Virus record (IMG/VR): IMGVR_UViG_3300036791_000093
Location: 1 to 54,684 of that record
DNA length: 54,684 nucleotides
Origin: a virus
Taxonomy: Duplodnaviria > Caudoviricetes
Reading direction: 5' to 3' (one strand)
Shown here: in pieces, positions 267-53,832 of the stretch
How positions within the stretch are numbered: the first letter of the stretch is position 1
Layout of the letters: each line of letters begins with the position of its first letter
Notes under the pieces: model-generated
Seen by the model: the letters and a program-made list of their open reading frames with translations, nothing else
Told to the model about the DNA's origin: nothing
The model's database searches: none
Position numbers and translations under genes: made by a program

Positions 267-458
267 ATGTCTGTAGCTCATTCCGATTGGCTCAATCCGC
301 TGGAAAAGATGACTGTTCGTACAGCGGTGTCCAAACGGGAGAAGGAAGTGACACTTCGCAACGGAACCAAGATCATGTTCGACTATGATCGCAGGCCAGG
401 AATGATCTGGTTCAAAGTCGAGGGTCATGTGGCTCCGTGTGGCTGGTGGTCACTGTGA
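267..458 (+). CDS. Hypothetical protein
   Basis: GGGGGTGA RBS; abuts the upstream stop. Confidence 0.7.
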   Translation: MSVAHSDWLNPLEKMTVRTAVSKREKEVTLRNGTKIMFDYDRRPGMIWFKVEGHVAPCGWWSL

Positions 459-1438: not shown

Positions 1439-1926
1439 ACGGCGATAAGCGCAAAGCCTTGAAACGTCACACTTTTGAGTTCTACTCAGAACTCGAAAAG
1501 CGGTCGGAAGTGAATGAGTATGGAATACGTGTGTTCGTAGGTGAGTACACGAAGGTACTGACAGAGATGAAGGTATCGACAACTCACTGGTCTGCGATAC
1601 GCGAGATACTCATCACTTCCGGCTGCATCAGCATCGTACAGCGAGGTACGGCACACCAGCCGTCCATCGTTGTATTGATAACCGAGCCTACCGACGAAAA
1701 TTATTCGGCGGGAAGCTTGACAAGCGCGCCGCACCCTGCTATCCTAGTCGCATCGCTGGAGAAACGGGTAGCTGCCTTGGAAGCGTGGTTTATCACACTT
1801 GGCGGGGATAAAGTGAACTTCGCTGAAATCGTGAGAAACCACGAACGACGGATAACCAAGGTTGAAGTGGGTATGGAGAGAGCCAGCGAACCAAACCAAA
1901 CAACACCGAAAGGAAATAACCAATGA
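1435..1926 (+). CDS. Hypothetical protein, possible winged-helix plus coiled coil
   Basis: ATGA overlap; helix-helix-beta hairpin pattern followed by a heptad-like C-terminus. Confidence 0.7.
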   Translation: MNGDKRKALKRHTFEFYSELEKRSEVNEYGIRVFVGEYTKVLTEMKVSTTHWSAIREILITSGCISIVQRGTAHQPSIVVLITEPTDENYSAGSLTSAPHPAILVASLEKRVAALEAWFITLGGDKVNFAEIVRNHERRITKVEVGMERASEPNQTTPKGNNQ

Positions 1927-2309
1927 GTGCTACGGGACTTCCCGCAGCCCTGACTAACGACAAGATTCGCAATCTCTACGCGAATCGTCGCAAGAAGGGT
2001 CTGTATCTCGATCTGCTTCACAACTTCCTCGCGATGAACATCGCGGGTGTCGGTGCTCGTGAGACTTGGCCGACTGAGTTCCCGGTGGTCACCATCGATG
2101 AGGATGGTGAGAAGTCTGGCAAGCAGGTCACTTCCATCAAGCAGGGATTCGATAACGCGAAGGAGAAGAAGGACGCTCCTGAGGGTGCTGACAAGGTGGA
2201 CGTGATCGTCGATGGTGATGAGGTCTACCTCATCAACCGCGGAATCTACAACCCGGATGAGGTCGAGGCCGAGGTCGAGGTTCCCGATGTCGAGGCTGCC
2301 ACGGTCTAG
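1923..2309 (+). CDS. Hypothetical protein, paralog of 48555..48941
   Basis: AAAGGA RBS; shared motifs NDKI..LY..RR.KG.Y, RE.WP..F, QGF.NA, DVI..DG.EVY and an acidic tail. Confidence 0.85.
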   Translation: MSATGLPAALTNDKIRNLYANRRKKGLYLDLLHNFLAMNIAGVGARETWPTEFPVVTIDEDGEKSGKQVTSIKQGFDNAKEKKDAPEGADKVDVIVDGDEVYLINRGIYNPDEVEAEVEVPDVEAATV

Positions 2310-2315
2310 TAACAA

Positions 2316-2398
2316 ATCAAGCCTAGCCTTCATGGCTAGGCTTGATAGACTAGCTCTCAAGCGAATGCGGTCGCAGGGAGCTAGTCTATCAAGTCTAG
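2316..2398 (+). promoter_or_regulatory. Two overlapping, mutually exclusive intergenic hairpins
   Basis: ATCAAGCCTAGCC/GGCTAGGCTTGAT (2316-2346) overlaps CTTGATAGACTAGCTC/GAGCTAGTCTATCAAG (2341-2393). Confidence 0.75.
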
Positions 2399-2411
2399 TG
2401 GAGGTAATCAC

Positions 2412-2576
2412 ATGACACTCGAAGAGTTCATCAATCGTGAAATCAACGTGTGGTCGGAAGATTACATCTTCGATCTGCTCGATCGGGGTTACGAGCCTGT
2501 CGAGCTTATCTCGGACACGGGACAAACCAAGTGGTCATGGGTAAAGCCGGTTACGGTGGAAATCCCAGTAAACTAG
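2412..2576 (+). CDS. Small hypothetical protein (54 aa, not in ORF track)
   Basis: GGAGGT RBS; MTLEEFINREINVWSEDYIFDLLDRGYEP... Confidence 0.75.
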   Translation: MTLEEFINREINVWSEDYIFDLLDRGYEPVELISDTGQTKWSWVKPVTVEIPVN

Positions 2577-2578
2577 GT

Positions 2579-2607
2579 TTGACAAAGGCTGGGATTTGTG
2601 CTACCGT
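2579..2607 (+). promoter_or_regulatory. Sigma70/SigA-type promoter
   Basis: TTGACA-17 nt-TACCGT with extended -10 TG; spacer ends GATTTGTGC as at 5748 and 53484. Confidence 0.85.
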
Positions 2608-2612
2608 TAGGG

Positions 2613-2703
2613 AGGCGGCGGGTAACCGTTTCTCCCGTTTCGGTTACCACGCCTGTTGCGGCAAACGGGGTTGAGCAGCTTGTCGAGTGCTCCCCCGTTT
2701 GCC
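2613..2703 (+). ncRNA. Candidate sRNA or structured leader with anti-RBS loop
   Basis: Stem GGTAACCG/CGGTTACC with loop TTTCTCCCGTTT; second stem GGCAAACGGGG..GAGCA/TGCTC.CCCCGTTTGCC; starts right after the promoter. Confidence 0.6.
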
Positions 2704-3114
2704 AGCTTTCCTGAGATTGAAGTATGCCCCTCGTGTGGCGAATTTGTCGATAGTCTCGAAGATGTTACTGGTTGGTGTAGGTCGTGTTCAGGTACAGTAA
2801 TCCACGAACACACTAGTAACAAGTTTGAGATGGCATTAGCGGCAAATGCAGACGCGATTGAATACTACACCAGGATAACAACAGTCAGTGGTGGTAGTAT
2901 AACAGTACGTCAAGCGTTGAAACTAGCGCGACAAGACAGAGCAATCTGTGTAGTGTGTGGTAAACCTATGCCACGTGCCCCACGGAATGCTGTGTTCTGT
3001 CGCAGGTTTCAATTGTGTCGTCGTTATTCAAGACGATACGTTTACCTGTATACAGAGCGAAAACCACCGATGACCAAAGCTGTAGCATTAGCCACAGTCC
3101 TCGGTGAGTTATAA
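2680..3114 (+). CDS. Multi-Zn-finger protein (start uncertain: 2656, 2671 or 2680)
   Basis: CPSC, CRSC, CVVC and CRRFQLC motifs; AAACGGGG upstream of TTG 2680. Confidence 0.7.
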   Translation: MSSAPPFASFPEIEVCPSCGEFVDSLEDVTGWCRSCSGTVIHEHTSNKFEMALAANADAIEYYTRITTVSGGSITVRQALKLARQDRAICVVCGKPMPRAPRNAVFCRRFQLCRRYSRRYVYLYTERKPPMTKAVALATVLGEL

Positions 3115-3128
3115 ACACGGGAGAAAAC

Positions 3129-4757
3129 ATGAGCGAAATGCTGACCCGGAGGCCGCTTCTTAAGAAGAAGCCAACCGGGAAATTCAAGATGCGTGACTTC
3201 CAAGAGGAAGATATCGCATACATGGATGACATCAGCCGCGGCTCTTGTAACTGGTCTGAGATGGGAAGCTTCAAAACAACCACCGCTGAGTGGTTGATTG
3301 AGCTTAAGACTAAGGACATTCCTAATCCGCGTGTCCTTGTCATCACCACAAAGACTGGTAAGGGGCCGTATCTGGAGTCTCTGTGGGAAGTTCTCCCGGA
3401 GTGGGATATCTATACGGTTGGGACTAAGAAGTTCCAATTCGTTGTAGGTGCTCGTCCTGCTCCGTGGGACGTGTCTCTTCCTAGTCCTCTGAAAATGCGT
3501 CCGACGATCGTGCTAGCGCACTATCACTGTTTCACCAATCGGGCGTGTGTTCCACAAGAGGTCAAAGAGAAGATCAACGTTGCTGGTAGGGAAATCACTA
3601 GGCCAGTCATCGATCCTGAGACTGGTTTGGTGAAGATGATCGTCCCTCGATGCAATGAGTTGTTCACCAAGCATTGGGATATGATCGTGGTCGATGAGGC
3701 CCATCGTATCAAGAATCACGATGCTCAGTGGACACGCAACATCAAGAAGCTCAAGGCTCCGTATCGTCACATCATGACTGGTACGGGATTTGTCAACAAT
3801 CCAGCAGAGATTTGGAGTCTGCTTGATTTCGTGTGGCCCGGTGCCAACAGTCCACATCACGCGGTTGTCGGTACTAAGGGTTATTGGGGATTCCGCGAAT
3901 ACTTCTGTGAAGAGGATAACTTCGCAGGATACAGAAAGATCGTGGGAATCAAGCCCAAGAAGGAAGCGGAGTTCAAGGAGCTGGTTCGTAGCGTTGGCGT
4001 GAGACGCACGATGTTGGAGTGTTTCCCCGACATCAAGGAACCGATGGAAACTGTGGTTCCTGTGGAGTTGTCGCCTACACAGAGGCGCATGTACGAGCAG
4101 ATTAAGCAGATGCTTATGACGATGGATGCGAATGGTACTCCGCTTCACAGTCCGTCGGTTCTGGCTATGCTTAGTAGGCTGCGTCAGATTGCTATCGCAA
4201 CTCCCGAGGTTGTCAGTGAGAGATACGACGAGATACTGGAAAAGCGTGTCGTCGAAGTCAAGCTCACTGAGCCTAGCTCCAAGTTGGATGCCTGCATGGA
4301 AGTGATTGAAGGACTGGAATGGGACTCTGATCGTAAAGATCAGGTTGTCGTGTTCTCCAACTTCAAGCAGCCACTCGAATTGCTCAAGAAGAGGTTCGAC
4401 AAGGCTGGTATCACTTACTTGCACATGGTAGCCAGCATGAACGAGAAGCAGCGGTATGAGTTGTGGCACGAAACTTGGCCGAAGGGTGAACATCAGGTAT
4501 TTCTTAGCACGCTGGATCTTGGTGCTGAGTCAATCAATCTCACCGCAGCTCACAGGGCAATCTTCCTCGATCAACACTGGAGTCCTGCAAAGAACGCACA
4601 GGCAATCGGTCGTGTGTATCGTCCTGGTCAGACTGGTGCGGTTCAGTTGATCTACATCAGAGCGACTGGTACGGTGGACTACAGGGTTCTCGATGCTGTC
4701 AACGAGAAGAGGGGTTGGTTTAGGCAGATTTTCGGAGCAGATGAGGACGATGAGTAG
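3129..4757 (+). CDS. SNF2-family (SF2) helicase
   Basis: SEMGSFKT (motif I variant), VVDEAH, MTGT, VVVFS, ESINLT, QAIGRVYRPGQ. Confidence 0.93.
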   Translation: MSEMLTRRPLLKKKPTGKFKMRDFQEEDIAYMDDISRGSCNWSEMGSFKTTTAEWLIELKTKDIPNPRVLVITTKTGKGPYLESLWEVLPEWDIYTVGTKKFQFVVGARPAPWDVSLPSPLKMRPTIVLAHYHCFTNRACVPQEVKEKINVAGREITRPVIDPETGLVKMIVPRCNELFTKHWDMIVVDEAHRIKNHDAQWTRNIKKLKAPYRHIMTGTGFVNNPAEIWSLLDFVWPGANSPHHAVVGTKGYWGFREYFCEEDNFAGYRKIVGIKPKKEAEFKELVRSVGVRRTMLECFPDIKEPMETVVPVELSPTQRRMYEQIKQMLMTMDANGTPLHSPSVLAMLSRLRQIAIATPEVVSERYDEILEKRVVEVKLTEPSSKLDACMEVIEGLEWDSDRKDQVVVFSNFKQPLELLKKRFDKAGITYLHMVASMNEKQRYELWHETWPKGEHQVFLSTLDLGAESINLTAAHRAIFLDQHWSPAKNAQAIGRVYRPGQTGAVQLIYIRATGTVDYRVLDAVNEKRGWFRQIFGADEDDE

Positions 4758-4973: not shown

Positions 4974-5342
4974 TTGGCCCACTACTTCGACAGGGATGGG
5001 TGGCCCATTCATATGCTTGAATGGGCTGCCCTGCACGTAAACGATGAATACATCATCGTCAAGCAAGAAGATGTCGGTAGTTTCTGGGTTTCGACCGTCT
5101 GGATAGGATTGGATATGAGTGGTTCTTATAGGGAGCCACTCATCTTCGAGACGATGGTGTTCCAGGATGACATGCAAGCGGTTCTACAACAGCGTTACGC
5201 CACGGAAGAAGAGGCTAAGAAAGGTCACGATCAAATCGTGAATGACCTCAAGAAGTCTCTGGAAGAGATCGAAACTCTTACAAACGGGAGCGCAAGTGAC
5301 ACTTCTACTCCAAGTCAAGGGACTGATAGAGAGTCAGATTGA
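4974..5342 (+). CDS. Hypothetical phage protein
   Basis: VSTVWIGLD...PLIFETMVF...RYATEEEA..GH pattern, recalled from phage hypothetical proteins; GGAG RBS. Confidence 0.75.
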   Translation: MAHYFDRDGWPIHMLEWAALHVNDEYIIVKQEDVGSFWVSTVWIGLDMSGSYREPLIFETMVFQDDMQAVLQQRYATEEEAKKGHDQIVNDLKKSLEEIETLTNGSASDTSTPSQGTDRESD

Positions 5343-5776: not shown

Positions 5777-5846
5777 CTGCCCTTCGCGCCGATCGTAACG
5801 ACTCGGCTAACGCGCAAACCGCGCCAAACCACGAAACGGGAGAGAC

Positions 5847-6065
5847 GTGGATATGGCAGAAATTCGCCTTACCGATGGGCAGGTGGCTCTCGTTGACGAC
5901 GAGGATTTCGAGCGTGTATCGCAATTCACATGGCAACCTATAAAGATAAACGGGAATACGCACGCAGGGACTTACGACATACCAACGCCGGACGGACGAC
6001 CTGTGTTAATGGAAAACCTCGTTATGCATCTAGCAGAAATCGATAAAGCTAGTAGAGAAAACTGA
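5847..6065 (+). CDS. N-terminal module of HNH-AP2-type homing endonucleases, nuclease domain absent (possible remnant)
   Basis: IRLTDGQVALVDDEDFERVSQFTW resembles the N-termini of 16167..16577 and 45113..45589. Confidence 0.6.
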   Translation: MDMAEIRLTDGQVALVDDEDFERVSQFTWQPIKINGNTHAGTYDIPTPDGRPVLMENLVMHLAEIDKASREN

Positions 6066-6589
6066 TGTTACTACCAAAAGAACTCAGAGAAATTTCAGGT
6101 TTCCCTGGTTATTTTGTTTCTTCTGGTGGTAGAGTCTTTTCGACTTTCTACAATAGAGGCACAGATTTCAGAGAACTCAAACTTAAACGCGGTTGGCACG
6201 GTTATATGGAAGTAACTTTGTATTCTTCTGGGGATTCTCCTAAAACCATGTTAGTCCACAGAATTGTAGCCCTAGCTTGGCTACCTGCCCCAGAAAATTC
6301 TTCATTTATACAGGTTCGACATTTAGATGATGATCCAACCAATAACGAGGTTAGTAATCTTGCTTGGGGTACTGCTGCAACAAACAATCGAGAACGTTCT
6401 ACTACTCTTCTAACAGAACAAAAAGTGAGAGAAATAAAAGAACTTCTCAAAATACATAGAAGATCGCGCGGAGAAACTGGACATGCAGACGGTAAATTAA
6501 CTTACGCAGAAATAGGAAAAATGTATGGTGTATCGAAACTTACAATTTCTTCTATAGCAAATGGGAAGAGTTGGAGAGATGTTGACTGA
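6065..6589 (+). CDS. NUMOD4-HNH homing endonuclease with C-terminal HTH
   Basis: GYFVSSGGRV (NUMOD4), VHRIVA, VRHLDDDPTNNEVSNLAW, LTYAEIGKMYGVSKLTIS; AT-rich. Confidence 0.9.
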   Translation: MLLPKELREISGFPGYFVSSGGRVFSTFYNRGTDFRELKLKRGWHGYMEVTLYSSGDSPKTMLVHRIVALAWLPAPENSSFIQVRHLDDDPTNNEVSNLAWGTAATNNRERSTTLLTEQKVREIKELLKIHRRSRGETGHADGKLTYAEIGKMYGVSKLTISSIANGKSWRDVD

Positions 6590-7859
6590 GATCGCTCAAA
6601 CAGCGTCAGGTCTGTATAAGCCCCCAGAGATACCTAATAAATTTGACATCATTCCAATCCATAATTCTGACCGTGCATCGTTTAAACACTGTCGCAGATA
6701 CTTTGATTGGTCTAGTCCGACTCGTCATAATCTTAGCCTACGTGCAGATACACTTGGAATCAATACGGATCTTTTCTTCGGAACCGGGATACACTACGCA
6801 CTCGAACAATACTACCACCCAGGACTTAGACGTGATCCGGTAGAGTCATGGAGAACTTGGTTTGATGTTCAGTGGAGAGGCGGTACAGTAACAGAAGATT
6901 GGCTGGATAAGGTGTATGATCTGGCTCCCAAAGCGGTCGGGGGCGTCGATAATGGGAAGCCAGATCATAGACTTTATCTAGTAAGAGGCTTGCAGGACAT
7001 TCTTCCTGATGCCGATAGTGAACTGTATGATGAATTGTTCACACTCGGCGTTGAAATGATGACTGCGTATAAGCCTTATGCTGCTAGGAAAGATGAGTTT
7101 GAAGTCCTAGTAGTTGAGCATGATTTCTCAATCCCCGTATGGGATTTTGAGAATGAGTGCATCCTCACCGCTGTAGATTTGCGTGAGCAATCACCTAACT
7201 ACGGTAAGCGGTTAGAGGTACATTCTCGTGGTCGTATGGATGCCATTTGGCAGAAGCCTAGTGGTAAGTACGGCATCATCGACCACAAGACATCAAGCCG
7301 GATAGACGATGACTACTTTGATAAGTTGGAGACTGATGAGCAGGTCACGTCATACGCTCATGCAGCCGAAATTGAAGCCAAGTATTACGGACTTCCGTAT
7401 GCTGGTTTCCAAGTCGAGGAAGTGGTGTATAATGTACTCCGCAAGACATTCCCGCGTCCTCCTACGATGGTTCGTTCTGGCCTATTCTCCGTCGATAGAC
7501 AAAACGAATCAACCACATACGAAATGCTTATGGAGTTCATCCAGCAGAACAACATCGACATCGAATCGCTCGACGAGAAGCATCAGGCGTACATCGCATA
7601 CGTGCGGGATTCGGGCGTAGAACAGTGGTTCATTCGTAAGCTGGTAAGACGGAATCGTAGTCAGCTACAACAAGCCGGATATAGGCTGTACCTTGAAAGC
7701 CTAGACATGCTTGACCCGGATCTGCGTATCTATCCCAACTTGTCAAACAACTACAGGTGTATGCGTTGCCAGTTCCGCGCGCCATGTCTGATGATCGAAT
7801 CAGGAAATGATTGGCAGAGCGTACTGGAAAGCAACTACACGCACAGTCGGGATCGCTAA
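6579..7859 (+). CDS. Cas4/AddB-like PD-(D/E)XK exonuclease
   Basis: FKHCRR, GTGIHYALE, GRMD, IIDHKT, QVTSY, C-terminal CMRCQFRAPC (Fe-S ligands). Confidence 0.88.
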   Translation: MLTEIAQTASGLYKPPEIPNKFDIIPIHNSDRASFKHCRRYFDWSSPTRHNLSLRADTLGINTDLFFGTGIHYALEQYYHPGLRRDPVESWRTWFDVQWRGGTVTEDWLDKVYDLAPKAVGGVDNGKPDHRLYLVRGLQDILPDADSELYDELFTLGVEMMTAYKPYAARKDEFEVLVVEHDFSIPVWDFENECILTAVDLREQSPNYGKRLEVHSRGRMDAIWQKPSGKYGIIDHKTSSRIDDDYFDKLETDEQVTSYAHAAEIEAKYYGLPYAGFQVEEVVYNVLRKTFPRPPTMVRSGLFSVDRQNESTTYEMLMEFIQQNNIDIESLDEKHQAYIAYVRDSGVEQWFIRKLVRRNRSQLQQAGYRLYLESLDMLDPDLRIYPNLSNNYRCMRCQFRAPCLMIESGNDWQSVLESNYTHSRDR

Positions 7860-18521: not shown

Positions 18522-18595
18522 TACAAGGTAGACAGAAAGGAGATGAAGAGAATCTGAGGTAAGCAAGGTCATGTAATCTAACGGGAGGTTAGTCC

Positions 18596-18958
18596 TTGTT
18601 AGCCAAGCTGTCAGTCACCACAACTGTCGTAGTCTTTCTAGCCGTGCTAGGAGGCGCGGCAGGACAAACAGCAACAGCGAAACAGGAGTACCACAACTGG
18701 AGCAGGATGGTTTACAGTTGTGAGGCCAGGGGAATATACAATCCGTGGTATGCCAACACTGGCAACGGATTCTACTTTGGCCCACAGTTCACCCGCTCCA
18801 CATGGCACGTGGAGGGCGGAGGCCCGGTATCAGAAATGGGAGATCGTGGTGGTAGGCCAATGAAATACTACAGCATACCGTACATCATCCAAATCGCAGA
18901 GAACACAATACGCGATCAAGGGTACGGTGCTTGGCCTAACTGTCACGGGTACTTGTAG
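18596..18958 (+). CDS. rpf: Secreted resuscitation-promoting factor (Rpf)-like lytic transglycosylase
   Basis: Signal peptide; SCEA (catalytic Glu), NTGNGFYFGPQFTRSTW..EGG, QIAE...QGYGAWPNC match the Rpf domain consensus. Confidence 0.9.
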   Translation: MLAKLSVTTTVVVFLAVLGGAAGQTATAKQEYHNWSRMVYSCEARGIYNPWYANTGNGFYFGPQFTRSTWHVEGGGPVSEMGDRGGRPMKYYSIPYIIQIAENTIRDQGYGAWPNCHGYL

Positions 18959-19538: not shown

Positions 19539-20461
19539 CAGGCTACTCGAACAAACACCGTTCCTTGTGAGTTCTTGTTTCTAGTACGACGCATCACTTC
19601 ACCACCGTTTGAGTTATTGCTGGTTGATGTGTTGCCTTCAATCGCTGTGAAATTCCCGTTGTTGTCTGGCGGATTTTCCACGATTCCTATGTGATCGTAT
19701 TCACCATCCCGATCCCAATCGAAGCAAACCAGATCACCGGGTTTGGGACTTGATACGATCGATAGCCCTCTGTATCCCATGCGTGCATCGCTGACGATAT
19801 AGGGCACATAGGCATAGTACAATCCTTTTGAGAAAGACTTGGTTGGTTGTCCACCGAGTTGATCGCACCATGTGCAGAACATGGCACACCATGGGCCTAC
19901 CATGTTGTACCAGTCTGTGTATTTGCATAGGTTGGAGTCAGGTGGCGATTCCTTGACACCAATTTCTTTCAACGCCTTTGCCAACCGAGCCTGTGCGGGG
20001 GTTTGAGTGGGGGCCGGCGGATCTGGTTCAGGTTCTTTACCACCAAATCTGTCGAATGCAGCATTAATGAATTCTACAGCTCTTGCATCCATAGCTGGTT
20101 CACCAGCATGAGGCAATCCTGCTGGAACTCTGATTGAGCGTAGCGTGTTAAACGTTGGCTCACCGATCCAGCCTGTAGCCTGTACATTCTGTTGACGTTG
20201 GATACCCTCGATACCTGAGTCTTTTACCTGTCCGCCAGCTTTGCCGTGTGAAAATGCGTTATTGAATTCTTGATCGTATGCTTGCCAGGGCCAGCGTCCA
20301 GCTCTACTCACTGTTCGCTTGTATCCTTCGATGTCCGATCCGTCCATCGACGGATTTTTTCCTTGACTTGCGGAGTCAGGTGGGTAACAGGGACGGGGGA
20401 ATCCTTTGACCGCCACCATCGGGCCACCCGGATAACCTTTCTCATACCAGTTAGTACTCAC
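19538..20461 (-). CDS. Endolysin, C-terminal CHAP domain with putative N-terminal peptidoglycan-binding region
   Basis: PWCAMF, PGDLVCFDW, DHIGIV, IEGNT. Confidence 0.9.
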   Translation of the reverse strand: MSTNWYEKGYPGGPMVAVKGFPRPCYPPDSASQGKNPSMDGSDIEGYKRTVSRAGRWPWQAYDQEFNNAFSHGKAGGQVKDSGIEGIQRQQNVQATGWIGEPTFNTLRSIRVPAGLPHAGEPAMDARAVEFINAAFDRFGGKEPEPDPPAPTQTPAQARLAKALKEIGVKESPPDSNLCKYTDWYNMVGPWCAMFCTWCDQLGGQPTKSFSKGLYYAYVPYIVSDARMGYRGLSIVSSPKPGDLVCFDWDRDGEYDHIGIVENPPDNNGNFTAIEGNTSTSNNSNGGEVMRRTRNKNSQGTVFVRVA

Positions 20462-48343: not shown

Positions 48344-48387
48344 CGAACATATGTTCTCTTGACTTTCCCACGGCGCGCTGATAGGAT
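48344..48387 (+). promoter_or_regulatory. SigA promoter with adjacent LexA/SOS-like box
   Basis: CGAAC-ATAT-GTTCT (48344-48357) next to TTGACT-17-TAGGAT. Confidence 0.7.
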
Positions 48388-50578: not shown

Positions 50579-50604
50579 CCGACAAGAACGGGAGCGTATA
50601 ACAA

Positions 50605-51893: not shown

Positions 51894-51924
51894 TAAGTCA
51901 ACAACAAAACGGGAGAACAAGCAC

Positions 51925-53483: not shown

Positions 53484-53545
53484 TTGACAAGTGGCCTGAT
53501 TTGTGCTACAATGATGGTACGAAGGCGTGATCGAACACACGTTCG
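53484..53545 (+). promoter_or_regulatory. SigA promoter followed by a near-consensus LexA/SOS box
   Basis: TTGACA-17-TACAAT with GATTTGTGC spacer; TCGAAC-ACAC-GTTCG at 53531-53545. Confidence 0.8.
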
Positions 53546-53583
53546 CCTGCAACGCCATCTGAACCAGCAAACGGGAGCAATAC

Positions 53584-53808: not shown

Positions 53809-53832
53809 TCAACCAAACGGGAGAAACATCGA

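What the first reader, a model, noticed from the sequence alone, without database searches (positions are those of the whole stretch)
2613..2703. Phage-encoded hairpin RNA whose loop is antisense to the phage's own AAACGGGAG ribosome-binding motif
Seen: directly after a near-consensus promoter (2579-2607), the stem GGTAACCG/CGGTTACC displays the loop TTTCTCCCGTTT (2629-2640). Its complement lies before many + strand genes: 13/13 at 53815 (AAACGGGAGAAAC), 11 nt at 51907 and 5833, 10 nt at 3117 (helicase), 9 nt at 5282 and 53569, 8 nt at 50587 and 18580 (rpf). A second hairpin sequesters the AAACGGGG site of the downstream Zn-finger gene. Inference: one trans-acting sRNA or leader could switch off a regulon of early genes through a shared RBS tag, acting as a translational timing or lifestyle switch.
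Basis: partly seen in the sequence, partly recalled or inferred. Interest (0 to 1): 0.85.

Follow-up and report, generated by a model that had tools for sequence, protein, structure and literature searches.

The report
Phage leader hairpin antisense to ribosome-site tag
A soil phage starts one of its early messages with a conserved RNA hairpin whose loop is the exact mirror of a ribosome-binding "tag" carried by many of its early genes, which points to an RNA switch for their translation, although no experiment has tested this.

Summary
A sigma-70-type promoter (2579-2607) is followed by hairpin H1 (2617-2653, loop UUUCUCCCGUUU) and by a very stable hairpin H2 (2658-2704) that buries the start region of a zinc-ribbon gene. 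I found 30 distinct promoter+H1 copies in related soil phage contigs. The stems differ and co-vary (covariation score 0.774 against 0.232 in shuffles, 0 of 500 as high). The loop core CUCCCGUU is kept in 29 of 30; the other reads UUCCCGUU, which can still pair by G-U. Its complement AACGGGAG is the most frequent 8-mer pooled over six related genomes: 73 copies, 43 of them 3-13 nt before a start codon. These copies sit at starts of genes on the hairpin's strand; structural genes use AAGGAGG-type sites. Each genome holds one copy on the transcribed strand in reversed sense, and that copy is the H1 loop. Best reading (about 0.45): H1 is an antisense, C-rich-loop regulator of tagged early genes, comparable to P1 c4 or SprX. 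No RNA data exist. The tag resembles the start-associated sequences (SAS) of Cluster K mycobacteriophages, whose role is still unknown. In 7 of 13 Cluster K phages checked, the single reversed SAS also lies in a hairpin loop. The other 6, and a Cluster EF phage, lack it. H1 matches no Rfam family.

The parts
2579..2607 (+). Sigma-70/SigA-type promoter with extended -10: TTGACA, 17 nt, TGC-TACCGT
   Evidence: The same TTGACA-N14-TGnTAnnnT layout precedes H1 in all 30 unique relatives. The consensus scan did not call it (-10 matches 3 of 6).
2613..2616 (+). Inferred transcription start, 6-9 nt after the -10 box, so the RNA would begin at the foot of H1
   Evidence: Inference from promoter geometry. 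In relatives the conserved GGCNGC begins about 8 nt after the -10 box. No RNA data.
2617..2653 (+). Hairpin H1: outer pairs 2617-2620/2650-2653, bulged A2649, inner stem 2621-2628/2641-2648
   Evidence: Covariation in 26 aligned relatives: 6 of 6 pairs carry compensatory changes; 79.1% of cells paired against 47.0% in shuffles; 0 of 500 shuffles as high.
2629..2640 (+). H1 loop UUUCUCCCGUUU; invariant core CUCCCGUU at 2632-2639, antisense to the AACGGGAG tag
   Evidence: Core kept in 29 of 30 unique relatives, UUCCCGUU in 1. It is the only copy of the tag in reversed sense in the window.
2658..2704 (+). Hairpin H2, burying AAACGGGG (2663-2670) and the probable TTG start of the zinc-ribbon gene
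   Evidence: -31.4 kcal/mol here and -28.7 to -50.3 in the 29 instances examined, each holding the start region. No consistent U-tract follows.
2680..3114 (+). Zinc-ribbon protein gene (two CxxC...CxxC units, invariant RRYVYLY); the start codon is uncertain (TTG 2656, 2671 or 2680)
   Evidence: No Pfam hit above cut-off and no PHROG. AlphaFold2 pLDDT 81.3, no PDB fold match at E <= 0.001.
3115..3123 (+). Tag ACACGGGAG, 5 nt before the ATG of the SNF2-type helicase (3129-4757), same operon as H1
   Evidence: duplex with the loop -16.2 kcal/mol. A tag lies next to the zinc-ribbon stop codon in 16 of 29 unique relatives.
333..341 (+). Tag AAACGGGAG before GTG 348 (36-codon frame)
   Evidence: -17.4 kcal/mol.
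5282..5290 (+). Tag AAACGGGAG, 5 nt before GTG 5296 (69 aa)
5834..5842 (+). Tag AAACGGGAG, 4 nt before GTG 5847 (72 aa)
   Evidence: -17.6 kcal/mol, the best site in the window.
18579..18587 (+). Tag TAACGGGAG, 8 nt before TTG 18596 (Rpf-like transglycosylase)
50586..50594 (+). Tag GAACGGGAG, 10 nt before GTG 50605 (113 aa)
51907..51915 (+). Tag AAACGGGAG, 9 nt before ATG 51925 (89 aa)
   Evidence: -16.7 kcal/mol.
53569..53577 (+). Tag AAACGGGAG, 6 nt before GTG 53584 (74 aa)
53815..53827 (+). Tag AAACGGGAGAAAC, complementary over 13 of 13 nt to 2628-2640, before ATG 53833 (68 aa)
   Evidence: -17.4 kcal/mol.

Best explanation
Window 2579-2704 is the promoter and structured 5' leader of an early (replication-type) operon that encodes a zinc-ribbon protein, an SNF2 helicase and further genes. 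Host RNA polymerase starts at about 2613-2616, so the RNA begins with hairpin H1. H1 displays a C-rich loop whose invariant 8 nt, CUCCCGUU, are the exact antisense of AACGGGAG.

AACGGGAG is an extended Shine-Dalgarno 'tag' that this phage family places 4-11 nt before the start codons of a subset of genes on the hairpin's strand. The tagged genes include, in about half of the relatives, the gene directly after the zinc-ribbon gene.

I propose that the loop pairs with these tags (8-13 bp; -13.7 to -17.6 kcal/mol in the window), covers the ribosome-binding site and lowers translation of the tagged genes as the leader RNA accumulates. This would be a timing or feedback control of the early programme. 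The RNA could act as part of the full leader, or as a 5' fragment released by cleavage in the long double-stranded H2, for instance by RNase III.

H2 separately keeps the zinc-ribbon gene's own start region closed.

Shown: the hairpins, their covariation, the conserved loop, the tag's enrichment, position and strand bias, and the complementarity. Inferred: transcription from this promoter, processing, pairing in vivo, and the sign of the effect (repression).
For: (1) H1 is a selected structure.
- There are 30 unique promoter+H1 instances with different stems.
- A 5' arm folded with its own 3' arm gives -19.45 +/- 3.29 kcal/mol; folded with another instance's 3' arm it gives -12.16 +/- 3.93.
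- In 26 aligned sequences, 6 of 6 pairs carry compensatory changes. The covariation score is 0.774 against 0.232 in shuffles (0 of 500 as high) and at most 0.301 when partners are slid.

(2) The loop is under sequence selection. CUCCCGUU is kept in 29 of 30. The single variant, UUCCCGUU, can still pair with the tag through G-U.

(3) The complement is the family's commonest word.
- AACGGGAG ranks first of all 8-mers pooled over six genomes, with 73 copies.
- 43 of the 73 lie 3-13 nt before a start codon that opens at least 40 codons. For 200 letter-permutations of the word the means are 8.3 copies and 1.9 at starts.

(4) The information profiles match. Among 136 GGGAG sites at gene starts, the only extra information is A, A, C at -3 to -1. 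That is exactly the part mirrored by the invariant loop bases.

(5) Strand and class.
- 57 copies lie on the hairpin's strand, 43 of them at starts. 16 lie on the other strand, and 6 of those are the H1 loops themselves.
- Structural genes on the opposite strand use AAGGAGG-type sites.

(6) The extension is not explained by 16S pairing in the one candidate host genome found. Its 16S tail is the ordinary ...ACCTCCTTTCT.

(7) The loop pairs much better with the tags than with the neighbouring H2 arm. The cis site falls in the best 5% of windows in only 4 of 30 instances.

(8) The mechanism has precedents.
- C-rich loops that block ribosome sites are known in the phage-borne sRNA SprX (PMC4005690, passages).
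- They are also known in mycobacterial 6C (PMC6486639, listing and abstract).

(9) There is a parallel in 7 of 13 Cluster K phages.
Against: - No RNA evidence of any kind exists. The phage is known only from soil metagenome DNA.
- Loop and tag are both invariant in the family, so there is no compensatory change between them. The decisive comparative test could not be made.
- There is no terminator after H1 or H2, and the ORF starts inside H2, so a discrete sRNA is not indicated.
- The relative G004 keeps H1 but has only 5 AACGGGAG copies, 2 of them at starts.
- Only 16 of 29 relatives have a tag next to the zinc-ribbon stop codon.
- The loop also conserves U, U on its 5' side (27 and 23 of 30), and the tags do not mirror this. 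Something besides tag pairing therefore constrains the loop.
- Six of 13 Cluster K phages keep 11-15 exact consensus SAS while the hairpin loop is degenerate (Hammy, Amgine) or not antisense at all (Keshu, SirPhilip, TM4, Pixie).
- The Cluster EF phage AnnaSerena has SAS but no reversed copy at up to 2 mismatches.
- An anti-tag hairpin is therefore not needed for such tags to persist.
Confidence: 0.45

Rival explanations
1. H1 is a purely cis-acting leader element. It could be a 5'-terminal hairpin that stabilises the operon mRNA, and/or a binding site for a protein (for example the zinc-ribbon protein made just downstream), for RNA polymerase (a nut/put-like antitermination signal) or for the 30S subunit or S1 (a standby site for the closed H2 start region). 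On this reading the likeness of its loop to an anti-ribosome-site sequence serves only the control of its own operon, not a regulon.
For: - H1 sits at the very 5' end of the predicted RNA and directly before H2, which locks the zinc-ribbon gene's start region in all 29 instances examined.
- The outer stem GGCNGC/GCGCC and two extra loop U's are conserved although the tags do not need them.
- There is one copy per genome, always in this leader.
- In the window itself the loop can pair 7-8 nt with AAACGGGG in H2 (-10.5 kcal/mol, best 4.3% of windows).
Against: - It does not explain why the invariant loop 8-mer is the exact complement of the most frequent 8-mer of the family.
- Pairing of the loop with H2 is weak or absent in most relatives: best 5% of windows in 4 of 30, median rank 0.17.
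- A stabilising hairpin needs no conserved loop.
- No Rfam family matches.
Confidence: 0.25
2. The tag is a DNA site. A phage DNA-binding protein would recognise the asymmetric AACGGGAG box in double-stranded DNA at many gene starts, as the repressor of Cluster A mycobacteriophages binds its 'stoperators'. The single reversed copy just downstream of the promoter would then be an operator or roadblock for the zinc-ribbon/helicase operon.
For: - In duplex DNA the loop and the tags are the same site, so a single protein would explain the identity without any RNA pairing.
- The sites are asymmetric, oriented with transcription and lie in short gaps between genes.
- An unexplained zinc-ribbon protein with a basic, invariant C-terminal half is encoded next to the reversed site.
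- Stoperators are the precedent named in PMC3203893 (passages).
Against: - The reversed site is framed in every relative by inverted repeats of different sequence that co-vary so as to keep it exactly in a loop. A duplex-DNA site gives no reason for this.
- The tags sit at Shine-Dalgarno distance from start codons (mode 4-7 nt) and contain a working GGAG/GGAGG core.
- The only loop variant is C to U, which is neutral for RNA pairing (n = 1).
Confidence: 0.15
3. The complementarity has no function. AACGGGAG would be merely this family's preferred ribosome-binding sequence, and the pyrimidine-rich loop would match it by chance or by descent from an old ribosome site on the other strand.
For: - C/U-rich loops are bound to resemble anti-Shine-Dalgarno sequences.
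- SAS-bearing phages without any antisense copy exist.
Against: - The match is exact over 8 nt, is kept in 29 of 30 lineages whose stems have diverged completely, and involves the top-ranked of 65,536 possible words.
- No start codon or ORF follows the tag on the - strand in the window. Only G001 has a short frame there.
Confidence: 0.08

Closest known systems
Start-associated sequences (SAS) of Cluster K mycobacteriophages, and of Cluster EF Microbacterium phages
   Same: Both are a short asymmetric motif that contains a Shine-Dalgarno core but is conserved beyond it. Both lie a few nt before start codons of a subset of non-structural genes, in one orientation, with a single copy in the opposite orientation in some genomes (PMC3203893, passages; PMC7302621, passages). 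Their role is still called unknown in 2024 and 2025 (PMC11373665 and PMC12699233, passages). I found that the single reversed SAS of Anaya, Adephagia, Validus, Murucutumbu, Niklas, SgtBeansprout and Enkosi forms the loop (CCUCCUAUCC) of a hairpin. It lies in the intergenic region where, in Adephagia, late transcription is reported to start.
   Different: The sequence is different (AACGGGAG against the 13-bp GGGATAGGAGCCC) and shorter, in unrelated phages. I did not look for an ESAS-like upstream repeat. Here the antisense hairpin is nearly universal (30 unique instances; 1 relative, L042, without it). In Cluster K it is exact in 7, degenerate in 2 and absent in 4 of the 13 phages checked, and it is absent from AnnaSerena.
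c4 antisense RNA of phages P1/P7 and CI RNA of P4 (recalled from the literature, not read here)
   Same: Both are a regulatory RNA embedded in the leader of the operon it controls, with loops complementary to downstream sites that include a ribosome-binding site, released by processing.
   Different: There is no sequence or structure match: Rfam's models gave no hit at E <= 10 on 2200-3200. c4 has two targets in one operon. Here there are about 7-12 potential targets per genome, spread over 10-20 kb. Processing is unknown.
C-rich-loop sRNAs of Gram-positive bacteria: SprX (phage-borne, S. aureus), 6C/B11 (mycobacteria), RsaE/RoxS (recalled)
   Same: In both, an unpaired C-rich (UCCC-type) hairpin loop pairs with G-rich ribosome-binding sites and blocks 30S loading on several mRNAs (PMC4005690, passages; PMC6486639, listing and abstract).
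   Different: Those are separate genes with their own terminators, and they target host mRNAs through a generic SD-like seed. H1 is a 5' leader hairpin, and its loop matches a phage-specific extension (AAC) of the site as well.
Stoperators of Cluster A mycobacteriophages (L5 repressor sites)
   Same: Many copies of a short asymmetric site in intergenic gaps, oriented with transcription (mentioned in PMC3203893 and PMC4351075, passages).
   Different: Stoperators are DNA sites bound by a repressor and are not tied to start-codon distance. Here the spacing is that of a ribosome site, and the reversed copy is held in an RNA-type hairpin loop.
T4 RegA translational repressor regulon; RNase III-processed leaders of lambda N and T7 early mRNAs (recalled)
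   Same: RegA shows one factor shutting off many early mRNAs at their start regions. Lambda N and T7 show long leader hairpins that gate translation or are cut to release stable fragments, as proposed for H2.
   Different: RegA is a protein. No RNase III site has been shown here.

Membership tests
Rfam C4 antisense RNA family, or any other Rfam family | Match to a curated covariance model | tested here: not met
   cmscan of 2200-3200 at E <= 10 gave no hit on 2579-2705. The 5 hits all lie at 2311-2398 and are below gathering score.
C-rich-loop, SD-targeting sRNAs (SprX/6C/RsaE type) | Unpaired C-rich motif displayed in a hairpin loop | tested here: met
   10-14-nt loop with CUCCC in 29 of 30 relatives; the stem is supported by covariation.
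C-rich-loop, SD-targeting sRNAs (SprX/6C/RsaE type) | Complementarity of the loop to ribosome-binding sites of several mRNAs | tested here: met
   Of the 25 best duplex sites in the window, 10 precede a start codon that opens at least 40 codons. The best sites score -16.2 to -17.6 kcal/mol.
C-rich-loop, SD-targeting sRNAs (SprX/6C/RsaE type) | Independent small transcript with its own terminator | tested here: not met
   No stem plus U-tract follows H1 or H2 in the window. The zinc-ribbon ORF starts inside H2.
C-rich-loop, SD-targeting sRNAs (SprX/6C/RsaE type) | Demonstrated repression of targets | not testable with these tools
   No cultured host and no RNA run.
Start-associated sequences (Cluster K type) | Consensus GGGATAGGAGCCC | tested here: not met
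   The window's motif is (A)AACGGGAG. The two share only a GGAG-type core.
Start-associated sequences (Cluster K type) | Conserved beyond the SD core, 3-9 nt before start codons, one orientation, non-structural genes only | tested here: met
Start-associated sequences (Cluster K type) | Extended SAS (17-bp inverted repeats with a promoter) upstream of a subset | not tested
   I did not search for an ESAS-like repeat in the window.
Intrinsic terminator (for H2) | GC-rich stem followed at once by a U-tract | tested here: not met
   H2 is followed by AGCTTTCC. The scan does not list it. Only some relatives (for example L002) have a T-rich tail.
Phage antitermination RNA sites (lambda nut/boxB, HK022 put; features recalled) | One site behind each of the early promoters; a terminator downstream that is read through | tested here: inconclusive
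   Only one of the 3-4 similar promoters in the window (1717, 2579, 53484; 48359 weaker) is followed by H1. Read-through cannot be tested.

The most novel reading that the evidence does not exclude
The phage family uses a two-part translational code. An extended Shine-Dalgarno tag (AACGGGAG) marks a regulon of early genes. The first 40 nt of one early operon's RNA form a dedicated 'anti-tag' hairpin that reads this code by base pairing. It may shut the regulon off as the RNA accumulates, or it may bridge tagged mRNAs to a factor.

The same logic, arising independently with an unrelated tag, would explain the lone reversed SAS of Cluster K1 mycobacteriophages. That copy sits in a hairpin loop in the region where late transcription starts. 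This would give the first mechanistic handle on start-associated sequences, which have been unexplained since 2011.
Probability: 0.35. Interest if true: 0.85.

Novelty: new variant of a known kind. Interest (0 to 1): 0.72.

Why it matters
Conserved start-associated sequences have been described in actinobacteriophages since 2011 without a known partner. The authors left open 'either RNA or protein' (PMC3203893), and papers of 2024 and 2025 still call the role unknown.

This window shows a different phage family in which such a tag co-occurs, almost without exception, with one conserved RNA hairpin that presents its exact antisense. I also found the same arrangement in tractable Cluster K1 phages of Mycobacterium smegmatis. 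That turns an open question into a simple experiment: loop and tag mutations with compensatory changes.

If the idea is right, it adds a phage-internal, RNA-based way of timing early-gene translation. It also yields a new structured RNA family and a compact tag/anti-tag pair that could be reused as an orthogonal translational switch.

If it is wrong, H1/H2 still stand as a well-supported new leader RNA motif in an uncultured soil phage group.

My six searches of the held library found no paper that links SAS to an antisense hairpin. The ZoeJ paper, which may bear on this, is not held, and supplements are closed.

Tried and rejected
- **Named relatives.** There are no close relatives among named phages. 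Megablast and blastn of 2300-4300 and 2400-3200 found nothing. The helicase protein found only matches below 60% identity.
- **RNA evidence.** No RNA holder is listed. The one run that holds the stretch is a soil DNA metagenome and may be the source.
- **Rfam.** Nothing on the leader and nothing on the Anaya intergenic region.
- **Zinc-ribbon protein.**
  - Pfam gave only sub-threshold zinc-ribbon hits, and PHROGs nothing.
  - The AlphaFold2 model (pLDDT 81.3) has no PDB match at E <= 0.001.
  - Its role stays open. I did not try pdb_via_wide.
- **H2 as a terminator that ends a 90-nt sRNA.** Rejected, because the ORF starts inside H2 and there is no consistent U-tract.
- **H1 loop as a cis anti-SD for H2.** Weak and inconsistent.
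- **Tag explained by the host 16S tail.**
  - The only genome hit is a 1.5-kb contig in a Saccharimonadales MAG, which is weak host evidence.
  - Its 16S tail is canonical.
- **Reversed tag as the ribosome site of a gene on the - strand.** Rejected, because no start or ORF follows it.
- **Generality of the anti-tag hairpin.** Not general.
  - Absent from TM4 and Pixie, where only positions 20000 to the end were searched.
  - Absent from Keshu and SirPhilip, and degenerate in Hammy and Amgine.
  - Absent from AnnaSerena.
- **Chance matches dropped.** Three of the 12 pattern matches (L006, L012, L011) are AT-rich, with no hairpin and no zinc-ribbon gene. I dropped them by eye.
- **Gene calls.** The calls come from a crude home-made caller that misses small genes. 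Counts 'at a start' rest instead on a caller-free rule: a start codon within the stated distance that opens at least 40 codons.
- **Supplements.** Figs S3 and S4 of PMC3203893 list the reversed sites of three K1 phages. I could not see them.
Full report
**What the window is.** The window is a complete 54,684-bp virus record with direct terminal repeats. It has no near relative among named phages. Genes on the + strand run from about 47.8 kb across the ends to about 19 kb. They are small genes plus an SNF2 helicase, nucleases and an Rpf-like transglycosylase. The - strand from 19.5 to 47.3 kb holds the large structural genes. GC content is 49.8%.

**The observation.**
- The promoter is TTGACA, 17 nt, TGC-TACCGT at 2579-2607.
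- H1 has stem 2621-2628/2641-2648, extended to 2617/2653 with one bulge.
- The loop is UUUCUCCCGUUU, 2629-2640.
- H2 spans 2658-2704 and pairs GGCAAACGGGG with CCCCGUUUGCC.
- The leader folds far better than shuffles (-60.7 against -41.1 +/- 3.9 kcal/mol; z = -5.0).
- AAACGGGAG with up to one mismatch occurs 24 times against 10.0 +/- 2.9 expected (0 of 100 shuffles as many).
- The -10 hexamer is weak by itself (3 of 6), and the consensus scan missed the site.
- The zinc-finger ORF is in frame with TTG 2656, 2671 and 2680, not with the ATG at 2724, so its start lies inside H2.

**Relatives.**
- The helicase found four IMG/VR contigs at 62-77% identity.
- A promoter-plus-loop pattern found six more members, the three already known and three chance hits.
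- An alignment of the zinc-ribbon protein (A1) is blind to the hairpin. It found four further viral contigs and 30 metagenome loci.
- I examined 26 metagenome loci (L044-L069). Of these, 23 show the promoter and the core CTCCCGT within 230 nt upstream of the gene.
- The other three are as follows. L062 has TTCCCGT. L055 is cut off. L069 has another gene inserted, and its hairpin lies further upstream.
- One viral contig, L042, has no recognisable H1.
- In all there are 30 unique promoter+H1 instances.

**H1 is a real RNA-type structure.**
- The stems of the 30 instances are different sequences that keep pairing.
- A 5' arm folded with its own 3' arm gives -19.45 +/- 3.29 kcal/mol. Folded with another instance's 3' arm it gives -12.16 +/- 3.93.
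- The own partner ranks first in 13 and among the first three in 22 of 30. Several instances share identical arms, which lowers ranks.
- On a plain MAFFT alignment of 26 sequences, RNAalifold places 6 pairs around the loop, and all 6 carry compensatory double changes.
- 79.1% of cells are paired against 47.0 +/- 3.6% in shuffles. The covariation score is 0.774 against 0.232 (0 of 500 shuffles as high) and at most 0.301 when partners are slid by 1-3 columns.
- The outer stem GGCNGC/GCGCC starts about 8 nt after the -10 box, so the predicted RNA begins with H1.
- No Rfam family matches.

**The loop and the tag.**
- Loops are 10-14 nt long and always contain CUCCCGUU (29 of 30) or UUCCCGUU (1 of 30).
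- Pooled over the window and five fully fetched relatives (G001-G005), AACGGGAG is the most frequent of all 8-mers with 73 copies. AAACGGGA is second.
- 43 of the 73 copies are followed within 3-13 nt by a start codon that opens at least 40 codons. For 200 permutations of the same letters the means are 8.3 copies and 1.9 at starts.
- 57 copies lie on the hairpin's strand (43 at starts) and 16 on the other strand. Six of those 16 are the H1 loops themselves.
- Among 136 GGGAG sites at gene starts, the extra information is A (49%), A (55%) and C (47%) at -3 to -1 and nothing downstream. The invariant part of the loop mirrors exactly these eight positions.
- Structural genes use AAGGAGG or GGAGGTGA-type sites.
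- In the window the best predicted duplexes with the loop are the tagged start regions at 5832, 332, 53813, 51906 and 3113 (-16.2 to -17.6 kcal/mol).
- A tag lies at the stop codon of the zinc-ribbon gene, where it serves the next gene, in 16 of 29 unique relatives.

**H2.**
- In all 29 instances with a recognisable zinc-ribbon ORF, a long hairpin of -28.7 to -50.3 kcal/mol holds the predicted start codon. Most of positions -16 to -5 are paired. Several start-codon choices are uncertain.
- H2 therefore looks like a translational lock, and possibly a double-strand-specific cleavage site. It does not look like a terminator.
- Pairing between the H1 loop and the 5' half of H2 is good in the window (-10.5 kcal/mol) but inconsistent across relatives: best 5% of windows in 4 of 30.

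**Host.** The only hit in 185,579 species genomes is a 1.5-kb fragment of a related phage binned into a Saccharimonadales MAG. That genome's 16S tail is the ordinary ...ACCTCCTTTCT. In this one weak candidate host, the AAC extension of the tag is therefore not explained by rRNA pairing. The Rpf-type domain would also suit an actinobacterial host.

**Interpretation.**
- An exact, lineage-wide match between the invariant loop and the family's commonest word is very unlikely to be chance. Three links are possible.
  - RNA-RNA pairing.
  - One protein reading the same duplex-DNA site in both orientations.
  - A cis role in which the likeness serves only the operon itself.
- The co-varying stems hold the site exactly in a loop, which favours RNA. 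The Shine-Dalgarno spacing of the tags favours translation. The weak loop-H2 pairing argues against a purely cis anti-SD role.
- I therefore favour an antisense, C-rich-loop mechanism (0.45).
- The known analogues are SprX, 6C and, from recall, the leader-embedded c4 RNA of P1.
- Against this reading, there are no RNA data and no loop/tag co-change. There are extra conserved loop U's that the tags do not mirror. Relative G004 keeps H1 but has few tags.

**The Cluster K parallel.**
- Pope et al. 2011 describe 13-bp start-associated sequences at the ribosome sites of non-structural genes. [quoted passage not shown] They left open an RNA or protein partner (passages).
- In Anaya (20000 to the end searched) I find 16 forward copies and 1 reversed copy, against 0.59 expected.
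- The reversed copy is the 10-nt loop CCUCCUAUCC of a hairpin GCGCGG/CCGCGC on an outer 10-bp stem. It lies in the 385-bp gp96-gp97 gap.
- The same hairpin occurs in Adephagia, Validus, Murucutumbu, Niklas, SgtBeansprout and Enkosi.
- RNAalifold on 8 sequences gives 16 pairs, but only one shows a double change. These phages are close relatives.
- The 171-nt region matches 138 Mycobacterium phage records.
- Against generality, Hammy and Amgine have degenerate loops. Keshu, SirPhilip, TM4 and Pixie have no antisense copy.
- Whole-record searches show 11-15 exact SAS in Hammy, Amgine, SgtBeansprout, SirPhilip and Keshu.
- The Cluster EF phage AnnaSerena has 8 exact SAS and no reversed copy at up to 2 mismatches.
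- The anti-tag hairpin is therefore recurrent but dispensable for the tags.

**Novelty and verdict.** H1/H2 is a new, well-supported structured leader RNA motif of an uncultured soil phage group. The tag is a new SAS-like element. Their exact complementarity is a new variant of antisense control. It is unproven but directly testable, most easily in Cluster K1 phages of M. smegmatis. My six literature searches found no report of an antisense hairpin for SAS. The ZoeJ paper and all supplements could not be read.

Noticed in passing
window 2316-2398: Two long overlapping inverted repeats lie just before the 54-aa gene 2412-2576. One has 13-bp arms at 2316-2346. The other has about 16-bp arms at 2338-2398. 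They share the CTTGAT arm, so the two hairpins exclude each other. The same layout with other sequences occurs in L002, L003 and L004. It could be a terminator/antiterminator pair. Rfam gives only a spurious sub-threshold microRNA hit.
   Followed up: partly
window, for example 194(-), 957, 1404, 18337, 19498, 52447, 49933(-), 19998(-): CCGCACAG occurs 14 times on both strands. About nine copies sit in a longer repeat of the form TTG...AAAAnCCCGCACAGG, and many are inside genes. Related CTGTGC words top the 8-mer lists of G001 and G003. The function is unknown.
   Followed up: partly
window 1717-1745, 53484-53512, 48359-48387: Further promoters of the same TTGACA-N14-TGnTAnnnT type lie in the early arm, with 3-6 per related genome. 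Only one per genome is followed by H1.
   Followed up: partly
L074:39840-39915 (Anaya), L075:4652-4727 (Adephagia): The single reversed start-associated sequence of Cluster K1 mycobacteriophages forms the loop of a conserved hairpin. It lies in the gap where late transcription is reported to start. A second conserved hairpin lies just upstream.
   Followed up: yes
L087 (1-1543) and L088: A 1.5-kb fragment of a related phage (zinc-ribbon gene end, tag, helicase start) is binned in a Saccharimonadales MAG of 1.3 Mb. This may be a host hint or a binning artefact.
   Followed up: partly
L027:8147-8154 (G004) and L065:1413: In the G004 lineage an AACGGGAG copy lies inside the zinc-ribbon ORF (coding N-G-R), just before the C-terminal CxxC. 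It could be an internal start site for the C-terminal half or a coincidence.
   Followed up: no
window 6065-6589, 6561-7859, 18596-18958: These genes encode an HNH_3/NUMOD4 endonuclease-like protein with a weak sigma-70 region-4 hit, a PD-(D/E)XK nuclease, and a stand-alone Rpf-type transglycosylase. The last one carries the tag.
   Followed up: no
L069 (whole locus, 1392 nt): In this contig a gene with an AP2/HNH-like ending sits directly upstream of the zinc-ribbon gene, in the position that the leader hairpins occupy in the other relatives. H1 and its promoter are found elsewhere in the same locus. I did not map their order on the contig.
   Followed up: no
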